NCBI GenBank assembly: GCA_951406725.2
Contig: OX597824.1
Coordinates: 79,918,001 to 79,982,000 of the forward strand
DNA: 64,000 nt
Direction: 5' to 3'
Origin: Octopus vulgaris
Taxonomy: Eukaryota
A model generated the notes under the pieces. It saw only the letters and a program-made list of their open reading frames with translations. It was not told where the DNA came from and searched no databases. Position numbers and translations under genes: made by a program. Below, piece after piece: positions 1,673 to 26,970 of the stretch (positions are counted from its first letter, which is position 1; the number at the start of each line of letters is the position of its first letter).

Positions 1673-1738
1673 TAATCACACTGAGGAGAATAATAGATAC
1701 ATATAATTTACTTTAAATTCGAAACGCGTCTGTGATTA
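1673..1738 (+). ncRNA. Type I minimal hammerhead ribozyme (HHR-1)
   Basis: Stem I taatcaca/tgtgatta (8 bp). Core CTGAGGA at 1681-1687. Stem II gaat/attc. GAA, then palindrome ACGCGT, then C; predicted cleavage after GUC (1730). Sits in a ~220-bp island between (TA)n tracts. Confidence 0.88.
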
Positions 1739-2836: not shown

Positions 2837-2973
2837 TATTTTAATAACACAGAAGCTTGTTACTATTTCTTGAGAATATTATATAGTTAACAACAATTGC
2901 AGCGTGGGAGGTGTTTATAAGCCATTTAAGAAATACACAAAGCCGTTAGATTCACTTCAACATTTAAATTTAA

Positions 2974-3024
2974 TTTGTCAAAATATTTTCGTCGCTTTGA
3001 CACCGCGACCTGTTCACTGACAAA
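2974..3024 (-). ncRNA. Hammerhead ribozyme variant with G3:C8 core (HHR-2)
   Basis: Minus strand: tttgtca GTGAACA g gtcgc-ggtgtcaaa-gcgac GAA AATATT T tgacaaa. 7-bp stem I, 5-bp stem II, palindromic stem III, core GUGAACA in place of CUGANGA. Confidence 0.75.
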
Positions 3025-3047
3025 AATTCGTGCTGCATGCAAGTACA

Positions 3048-3452
3048 TACTCTTTTACTCTTTTACTCTTTTACTTGTTTCAGTCATTTGACTGCGGCCA
3101 TGCTGGAGCACCACCTTTAATCGAGTAACTCGACCCCGGGACTTATTCTTTGTAAGCCCAGTACTTATTCTATCGGTCTCTTTTGCCGAACCGCTAAGTG
3201 ACGGGGACGTAAACACACAAGCATGGGTTGTCAAGCAATGCTAGGGGGACAAATACAGACACACAAACACACACATATATACATATATATATATACGACG
3301 GGTTTCTTTCAGTTTCCGTCTACCAAAGCAACTCACAAGGCTTTGGTCGGCCCGAGACTATAGTAGAAGACACTTGCCCAAGGTGCCACGCAGTGGGACT
3401 GAACCCGGAACCATGTGGTTAGTAAACAAGCTACTTACCACACAGCCACTCC
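3048..3452 (-). mobile_element. tRNA-derived SINE, family C (internal TA/TG microsatellite, (TAAAAGAG)n tail)
   Basis: Minus head ggagtggctgtgtggtaag...gggttcagtcccactgcgtggcaccttgggcaagtgtc. Matches the full copy at 51765-52175. Confidence 0.9.
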
Positions 3453-26779: not shown

Positions 26780-26970
26780 GAAAGAATGGAGTTGAACGAC
26801 GAATTAACAAAATTCCTTTATTCTCGACATATGTTTCGAAGGCTGCATATTCCTAATTTCGAAGGAATAAGGGGTGCATTATGTCGCCTTCTCATCAGGA
26901 AAAACAAGGAACTTATGTCATATATATATGTTTGTGTGTCGGCGTTTGTCCCCCCACCATCGCTTGACAA
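26559..26970 (+). mobile_element. SINE family C, split by an HHR-bearing insertion in its internal (TA)n
   Basis: Head at 26559-26725, (TA)n, foreign 26772-26920, then the SINE resumes tgtgtcggcgtttgtccccccaccatcgcttgacaa. Confidence 0.85.
26821..26903 (-). ncRNA. Type I hammerhead ribozyme (HHR-8)
   Basis: Minus: ttttc CTGATGA gaaggc...tattcct/aggaata...gccttc GAA ACATATGT C gagaa. Stem I extends by ttcctt/aaggaa; GUC site. Confidence 0.92.

What the first reader, a model, noticed from the sequence alone, without database searches (positions are those of the whole stretch)
2974..3024. Natural G3:C8 compensatory-core hammerhead (GUGAACA)
Seen: complete HHR topology (7-bp stem I, 5-bp stem II, GAAA, palindromic AAUAUU, UUU site), but the core reads G3-U-G-A-A-C8-A. 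Established: positions 3 and 8 form a Watson-Crick tertiary pair in the active fold, so a double swap can preserve it. Inference: the paired change suggests selection for catalysis in the source element, and standard CUGANGA searches would miss the whole family.
Basis: partly seen in the sequence, partly recalled or inferred. Interest (0 to 1): 0.82.

Follow-up and report, generated by a model that had tools for sequence, protein, structure and literature searches.

The report
Swapped-core hammerhead in octopus retrotransposon
Thousands of copies of a young jumping-gene family in this octopus-like genome carry a small hammerhead RNA whose two paired core letters are swapped (G-C where its sister families have C-G), so it likely still cuts itself, slowly, although pattern searches for the usual core would miss it.

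Summary
Real, on the minus strand (3024-2974): a type I minimal hammerhead with a G3:C8 core. It lies in a solo pseudo-LTR copy (2892-3038) of a young PLE family with open RT plus GIY-YIG frames. G3:C8 is the family state: 6,459 of 7,054 genome-wide matches to one 19-base context, and 66 of 75 copies picked without regard to the core. Sister families in this genome carry C3:G8 in homologous stems; metagenomic relatives carry C3:G8 or U3:A8. G3:C8 is therefore a derived compensatory swap. Published mutagenesis shows this swap partly rescues cleavage. Cleavage itself is not shown: 82 of 100 copies run across the cut site, as do 18 of 18 copies of a canonical-core control family. A young sister family carries an uncompensated A9C, so the core is not rigid. 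I found no natural G3:C8 in the papers I could read (key ones were not held). The scan noted one before in a foraminiferan PLE (e1-7352648, unchecked). Verdict: new variant of a known kind.

The parts
2892..3038 (-). Solo, tail-less pseudo-LTR copy (about 147 nt) of a Penelope-like element family (my 'family A'); 5' end at the family's common start site, 3' end at the shorter of the two common 3' ends
   Evidence: 96.6% to L002 and 91.2% to the ORF-linked copy in L081; 1,427 candidates in the DNA search; ends as in other copies
3018..3024 (-). Hammerhead stem I, 5' strand (UUUGUCA)
3011..3017 (-). Core positions 3-9, G3-U-G-A-A-C8-A9 (G3=3017, C8=3012)
   Evidence: family state
3010..3010 (-). 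Extra G between A9 and G10.1, shared with sister families and most relatives
   Evidence: an extra base here is typical of PLE hammerheads (PMC4209133)
2991..3009 (-). Stem II (GUCGC/GCGAC, G10.1-C11.1) with 9-nt loop II, the part that differs between subfamilies
2981..2990 (-). G12-A13-A14, palindromic stem III AAUAUU (2987-2982) and U17 (2981); predicted cut between 2981 and 2980
   Evidence: the cut site is inferred from hammerhead numbering
2974..2980 (-). Stem I, 3' strand (UGACAAA)
3037..3048 (+). 12-nt inverted piece of the element's 3' tail joined head-to-head at the copy's 5' end, like the inverted truncated copies typical of PLE insertions
   Evidence: exact match to position 186 of the tailed copy in L028

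Best explanation
This is a minimal type I hammerhead in the pseudo-LTR of a young Penelope-like retrotransposon, in which the ancestral C3:G8 core pair became G3:C8, and it likely still cuts the element's RNA after U17, probably slowly and only when two hammerheads pair through AAUAUU or the element's protein helps. Shown: the motif, its family-wide state, its place between one ORF and the next, and compensatory variation among relatives. Inferred: the common 5' end about 58 nt upstream of the cut site is likely the transcription start; reverse transcription likely starts at two sites downstream (copies with and without a 55-60-nt tail) and copies uncut RNA. A fast cutter would destroy its own template, so a slow, conditional cutter fits. 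Taken from published work, not tested here: partial activity of the swapped core, dimer cleavage and protein help.
For: Parent element: 27 of 30 loci picked on the endonuclease region carry the unit about 0.9 kb downstream; the 26 my pattern read have identical core and stems. ORFs are open with YVDD, a CX3CX2C linker and GIY-YIG. L084 is a tandem pLTR-ORF-pLTR whose tail runs into the ORF. All three frames stop in or just after the hammerhead, so coding does not constrain it. Family state: G3:C8 6,459, G3 with another base 386, other base at 3 209; 66 of 75 core-blind copies; no other letter at 5% or more at positions 3 or 8 in 4 public runs with 4 organism labels. Swap: family D reads GUCA CUGAAGA G GUC...UU UGACAAA and differs in the core only at 3 and 8; families B and C also have C3:G8. 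A scan with no demand on the 3:8 pair found full motifs in 7 of 19 metagenomic loci, all Watson-Crick (4 C:G, 3 U:A). In the RT-EN tree G:C is sister to family B and sits among C:G elements (quick method, midpoint root). Of 12 shared non-CpG variants between subfamilies, 1 falls in the 42 hammerhead positions and it keeps pairing (U-A to U·G); P=0.018. Literature: C3G/G8C partly restores cleavage in a PLE hammerhead (PMC11167929, passages); it is the only rescuing double mutant of that motif in a full pairwise scan (PMC9901934, passages). G3-C8 is reported more active with G17 than with C17 (PMC3884650, passage, 'data not shown'); that U17 here avoids a G3-C17 trap is my inference.
Against: No cleavage is shown. 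Only 2 of 100 copies start at the cut site (1.7 expected; both ambiguous junctions), and 82 of 100 run across it; the canonical control family behaves the same (18 of 18), so this does not discriminate. The young copies of family B, with 99% identical intact ORFs, carry A9C with no visible compensation. About 150 copies are G3·G8, roughly ten times the reciprocal C3·C8, and in 3 of 11 inverted pairs both arms carry G8, so RNA with a broken pair seems to have been copied. AAUAUU is a weak duplex (-0.2 kcal/mol against -7.5 for the canonical neighbour's ACGCGU). Hammerhead-dead mutants still insert in vitro (PMC11167929), and Naiad PLEs spread without canonical hammerheads (PMC8557442). G at the inserted position is outside the published CUGANGAH consensus.
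Confidence: 0.6

Rival explanations
1. The fold is kept for a job other than cutting, such as binding the element's protein, pairing two RNAs through stems I and III, or shaping the 5' leader; the swapped core no longer cuts under cell conditions.
For: Templates are mostly uncut. In 5 of 54 head-to-head pairs the arms have loop II sequences of clearly different subfamilies (8 of 54 counting one-base differences), which suggests two RNAs per insertion. A9C occurs in family B and in L213.
Against: The 3:8 pair belongs to the active fold (PMC3884650, passage), and keeping it Watson-Crick over three pair types is what catalysis would demand. G5, A6, G12, A13 and A14 are unchanged in all 14 aligned representatives.
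Confidence: 0.2
2. The motif is a decayed ribozyme: C3G killed it in a source copy, C8 arose later by drift, and the family spread because hammerhead activity is dispensable.
For: G3·G8 excess, A9C in an active sister family, short time for stems to decay in a young family (copies about 1.5-8% from the commonest letters).
Against: The only two core changes from family D fall on the two partners of one pair and restore it. Loop II and flanks changed repeatedly while core and stems did not. G3:C8 already dominates an older subfamily: my pattern read 15 G:C and 1 G:G among 29 neighbours picked on the 3' part, 13 unread. G8 copies form no clade (33 changes for 36 copies).
Confidence: 0.15
3. The sequence is constrained at the DNA level, as part of an internal promoter just downstream of the start site, and only looks like a hammerhead.
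For: It lies 16-65 nt after the common 5' end; an internal promoter in Penelope is mentioned in PMC8557442 (passage).
Against: Relatives change both sides of the stems (52 cells with double changes against 15.6 shuffled; representatives were partly chosen for having stems), which a DNA motif would not need.
Confidence: 0.04
4. Chance resemblance.
For: The fold signal is weak with flanks; Rfam gives no match.
Against: 0.01 hits per shuffled window; thousands of copies at the expected place in a PLE; homologous canonical hammerheads in sister families.
Confidence: 0.01

Closest known systems
Minimal type I hammerheads of metazoan PLE pseudo-LTRs (Cervera and de la Peña 2014, PMC4209133; read parts 1-2 of 4 and supplement file 2 part 2)
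   Same: Type I layout, short palindromic stem III, extra base between 9 and 10.1, G10.1-C11.1, place in the pLTR, mostly dispersed single copies, some close opposite-strand pairs.
   Different: Core pair G3:C8 (their Fig. S3 rows that I saw begin CUGA or UUGA, none GUGA); the extra base is G (consensus H; G in one row); stem I is longer (7 bp).
Natural U3:A8 hammerheads (Perreault 2011, PMC3088659, section 8; Schistosoma Cercyon PLE variant in PMC4209133)
   Same: Natural double change at the 3:8 tertiary pair.
   Different: U:A is two transitions via a U·G wobble; G:C needs two transversions through a mismatch (my reasoning).
Engineered C3G/G8C hammerheads (PMC11167929 and PMC9901934, passages; Martick and Scott 2006 only as cited there)
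   Same: The same swapped pair, partly active.
   Different: Those are laboratory mutants; this one is the wild-type state of a family with over 6,400 copies.
Neptune/Nematis-type endonuclease-bearing PLEs (PMC8557442, passages)
   Same: RT followed by a CX2-5CxxC linker and C-terminal GIY-YIG, tandem pLTRs, inverted truncated copy, optional tail, (TA)n flanks (59 of 100 copies).
   Different: DKS in place of DKG; clade not placed against reference elements.
Non-LTR retrozymes (10.64898/2026.07.22.740005, part 1 of 5)
   Same: Short non-coding PLE-derived units with a type I hammerhead.
   Different: The copies seen here are dispersed solo or head-to-head units of an autonomous PLE, not head-to-tail arrays.

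Membership tests
Type I hammerhead ribozyme | Three helices around the core in type I order | tested here: met
   Stems I and II in the MFE fold; stem III only as a palindrome
Type I hammerhead ribozyme | Literal core C3-U-G-A-N-G8-A | tested here: not met
   G3 and C8 in 6,459 of 7,054 context matches
Type I hammerhead ribozyme | Watson-Crick pair possible between 3 and 8 | tested here: met
   G:C here; C:G or U:A in relatives
Type I hammerhead ribozyme | U4, G5, A6, A9, G12, A13, A14, A15.1-U16.1, G10.1-C11.1 and an NUH site | tested here: met
   the site is UUU
Type I hammerhead ribozyme | Match to an Rfam hammerhead model | tested here: not met
   None at gathering score or E<=10; the canonical minimal hammerheads in the window are missed too
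Type I hammerhead ribozyme | Site-specific self-cleavage | not testable with these tools
   No raw RNA reads were listed; copy ends do not discriminate
Type I hammerhead ribozyme | Loop I to loop II tertiary contact | not tested
   Not searched; loop II varies freely between subfamilies
PLE minimal hammerhead (Cervera 2014) | Lies in the pLTR of a PLE | tested here: met
PLE minimal hammerhead (Cervera 2014) | Extra base between 9 and 10.1; palindromic stem III | tested here: met
   G at 3010 (published consensus is H) and AAUAUU
PLE minimal hammerhead (Cervera 2014) | Cleaves as a dimer | not testable with these tools
   Only duplex energies were computed, and the palindrome is weak
Endonuclease-bearing PLE (Neptune/Nematis type) | RT plus C-terminal GIY-YIG with CX2-5CxxC linker | tested here: met
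Endonuclease-bearing PLE (Neptune/Nematis type) | Tandem pLTRs, inverted truncated copy, optional tail, microsatellite targets | tested here: met
   L084; tail in 55 of 100, (TA)n beside 59 of 100; inverted partners
Endonuclease-bearing PLE (Neptune/Nematis type) | Clade placement against reference Neptune and Nematis proteins | not tested
   No reference proteins were in the tree
Non-LTR retrozyme | Head-to-tail tandem units, each with a hammerhead | tested here: not met
   No such array at the site; fetched copies are solo, head-to-head or ORF-linked

The most novel reading that the evidence does not exclude
A whole clade of Penelope-like elements tunes its hammerhead by toggling the 3:8 pair among C:G, U:A and G:C beside a fixed inserted G. 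This family is the first high-copy natural G3:C8 ribozyme. Its slow, dimer-dependent core couples two element RNAs in one particle, which would explain insertions whose two inverted arms come from different subfamilies and let dead G3·G8 copies ride along with active partners.
Probability: 0.15. Interest if true: 0.72.

Novelty: new variant of a known kind. Interest (0 to 1): 0.47.

Why it matters
The C3G/G8C swap is a textbook rescue experiment, but the papers I could read report only U3:A8 as its natural counterpart. Here the G3:C8 form is the wild type of a young family of more than 6,400 copies, with canonical sister families in the same genome that differ in the core only at those two positions. 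That gives a ready natural series (C:G, G:C, U:A, A9C, G·G) for testing whether and how fast PLE hammerheads must cut, which is still open. It also means hammerhead censuses and 'hammerhead-less PLE' claims built on CUGANGA patterns can miss whole families.

Tried and rejected
Rfam found nothing, also for canonical neighbours. Looking for a pile of copy ends at the cut site gave nothing, and the canonical control gave nothing either, so the test does not discriminate; the family B and D counts come from loci chosen on the whole motif and were not used. The sharp 5' end follows a branch-point-like and acceptor-like sequence; I considered a spliced leader, but copies share no upstream exon, so a start site fits better; no splice joint was listed, and contigs cannot settle this. 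An ancestral G3·G8 subfamily was not supported: G8 copies form no clade, show the same age spread as other mutants, and are rare in the older subfamily; the excess stays unexplained. No RNA holder was listed on record; run X7 is only guessed to be RNA, so expression is untested. The first metagenome scan and the viral scan found no relatives. The monomer energy failed (bad structure string) and was not used. My parse of L216's stems was wrong; only its core, read by eye, was kept. The 16 of 16 and 14 of 14 pair counts include rows chosen by eye or by a scan that required pairing, so the unbiased figure is 7 of 7 from 19 loci (two further weak hits there were rejected as wrong registers). Literature searches for a natural G3:C8 found none; the Octopus vulgaris repeat paper (PMC13282606, passages and its supplement) does not mention ribozymes, and the family's motif is not in the PMC8557442 supplement. 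Not held, so not read: Lünse 2017 (PMC5785218) and Przybilski and Hammann 2007 (PMC1986816); Cervera's supplement file 1 was not searchable. Lünse 2017 in particular could already list this variant.

Full report
Observation. On the minus strand, 3024-2974 reads as a type I hammerhead: 7-bp stem I, core G3-U-G-A-A-C8-A9, an extra G, 5-bp stem II closed by G10.1-C11.1, GAAA, the palindrome AAUAUU and U17. Rfam sees none of the three.

What it belongs to. The window lies in a 2.8-Gb genome in which a protein that NCBI labels Octopus vulgaris matches at 99-100%. The motif sits in a 147-nt repeat copy (2892-3038) with a 12-nt inverted piece of the family's tail at its 5' junction. One locus, L032, held two inverted copies around the end of a GIY-YIG frame. 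Searching with that region gave 389 candidates; 27 of 30 fetched loci have the unit about 0.9 kb downstream, and the 26 my pattern read are identical in core and stems. Longer copies show open RT-endonuclease frames with YVDD and a CX3CX2C linker, and L084 is a tandem pLTR-ORF-pLTR whose tail runs into the ORF. Of 100 copies picked by a 3' pattern, 55 have the tail and 59 abut (TA)n. This is the anatomy of an endonuclease-bearing Penelope-like element of Neptune or Nematis type as described in PMC8557442 (passages); I did not place it against reference clades. All three frames stop in or just after the hammerhead.

Is G3:C8 the family state? Yes. In one 19-base context the genome holds 6,459 G3:C8, 386 G3 with another base at 8, and 209 with another base at 3; none of the first 100 listed of the last group is C3:G8. 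Among copies picked without regard to the core, 66 of 75 are G3:C8. Four public runs under four organism labels show no other letter at 5% or more at either position.

Is it a compensatory swap? Sister families in the same genome have homologous pLTRs with C3:G8, the same inserted G and the same start of stem II; their pattern gives 5,459 matches against 80 for the control. Family D shares the inner four pairs of stem I, A7 and U17, and differs in the core only at 3 and 8. Among 19 metagenomic relatives scanned with no demand on the pair, 7 gave a full motif: 4 C:G and 3 U:A, 6 of the 7 with the inserted G. An alignment of 14 representatives, partly hand-picked, has 3:8 paired in all and many double changes in the stems. 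In a quick RT-endonuclease tree the G:C element is sister to family B and lies among C:G elements, so G:C is likely derived. Within the family, loop II and flanks changed between subfamilies while core and stems held: 1 of 12 shared non-CpG variants lies in the hammerhead and it keeps pairing (P=0.018).

Does it cut? Not shown. Published mutants say the swap partly rescues activity, including in a PLE hammerhead that needs its protein (PMC11167929, passages), and it was the only rescuing double change of that motif in a full scan (PMC9901934, passages). PLE minimal hammerheads cut weakly and as multimers (PMC4209133, parts 1-2). In the genome, 42 of 100 copies start within -3 to +7 of one site, 12 run further upstream, 82 cross the cut site and 2 start at it, against 1.7 expected. 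A canonical-core family gives the same picture (18 of 18 cross). Most copied RNA was therefore uncut, whatever the core. Because the likely RT start sites lie downstream of the cut site, fast cutting would separate them from the rest of the RNA; a slow, conditional cutter is what I infer.

Results against a strict catalytic reading. The young copies of family B carry A9C. About 150 copies are G3·G8; C-to-G at position 8 is 3 of 75 against 11 of 2,708 at other C or G sites (P=0.006), and 3 of 11 inverted pairs have it in both arms. These copies form no clade and are rare in an older subfamily, so neither an ancestral stage nor a hotspot is established. The palindrome is weak. Hammerhead-dead mutants still insert in vitro (PMC11167929).

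Comparison with what is known. It works like, and sits where, PLE minimal hammerheads do; it fails the literal CUGANGA core but keeps the pair that the core encodes. Natural U3:A8 is published (PMC3088659 section 8; PMC4209133). I found no natural G3:C8 in searches or in the Fig. S3 rows I saw, but Lünse 2017 and Przybilski and Hammann 2007 were not held. An unchecked note of this scan (e1-7352648) describes a G3:C8 core with an extra base in a foraminiferan PLE; I could not test it and count it as a lead only.

Verdict. A real, derived, family-wide G3:C8 hammerhead in a young PLE: a new variant of a known kind. Slow conditional cleavage 0.6, fold kept without cutting 0.2, decayed relic 0.15. 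Biochemistry predicted that the swap is viable, so the surprise is moderate; the value lies in the natural series it offers for testing. Interest 0.47.

Noticed in passing
window 1673-1738 (+): Canonical type I minimal hammerhead (CUGAGGA, palindrome ACGCGU, C17) of another dispersed repeat; 18 related places found, all crossing the cut site; missed by Rfam.
   Followed up: partly
window 26821-26903 (-): Second canonical type I hammerhead (CUGAUGA) with a long insert in stem-loop II and palindrome ACAUAUGU.
   Followed up: no
L181-L210 (for example L185, G000:C5:115840523-115845895): Very young sister PLE family (54% protein identity; many copies 99% identical, open frames up to 1,312 aa) whose hammerhead has A9 changed to C; other copies keep A9. 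A9C with the inserted G also occurs in metagenomic L213.
   Followed up: partly
genome-wide, (for example L378, L388-L427): G3·G8 single-mismatch copies (40 of the first 100 listed of 386, about 150) outnumber C3·C8 (7 of the first 100 listed of 209, about 15); 4 family copies are U3·G8; no C3:G8 among the 100 listed. Relic of the first step or a mutation hotspot: unresolved.
   Followed up: partly
L043, L105, L118, L176, L425: The two arms of head-to-head inverted insertions carry loop II sequences of different subfamilies, which suggests two different RNAs were copied in one insertion.
   Followed up: partly
L032:1650-2630 (-), L081:6939-7920: The element's roughly 1-kb region between ORF and hammerhead contains long (CATA)n-type microsatellite runs that travel with it.
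   Followed up: no
L287 (JAAELB010000961.1): A contig filed in a Desulfobulbaceae MAG encodes a PLE-like RT-endonuclease (31% identity); likely eukaryotic DNA in the bin.
   Followed up: no
window 3050-3450 and 2281-2660: Other abundant dispersed repeats, SINE-like by recall, flank the copy; the first is shared with several fetched loci.
   Followed up: no
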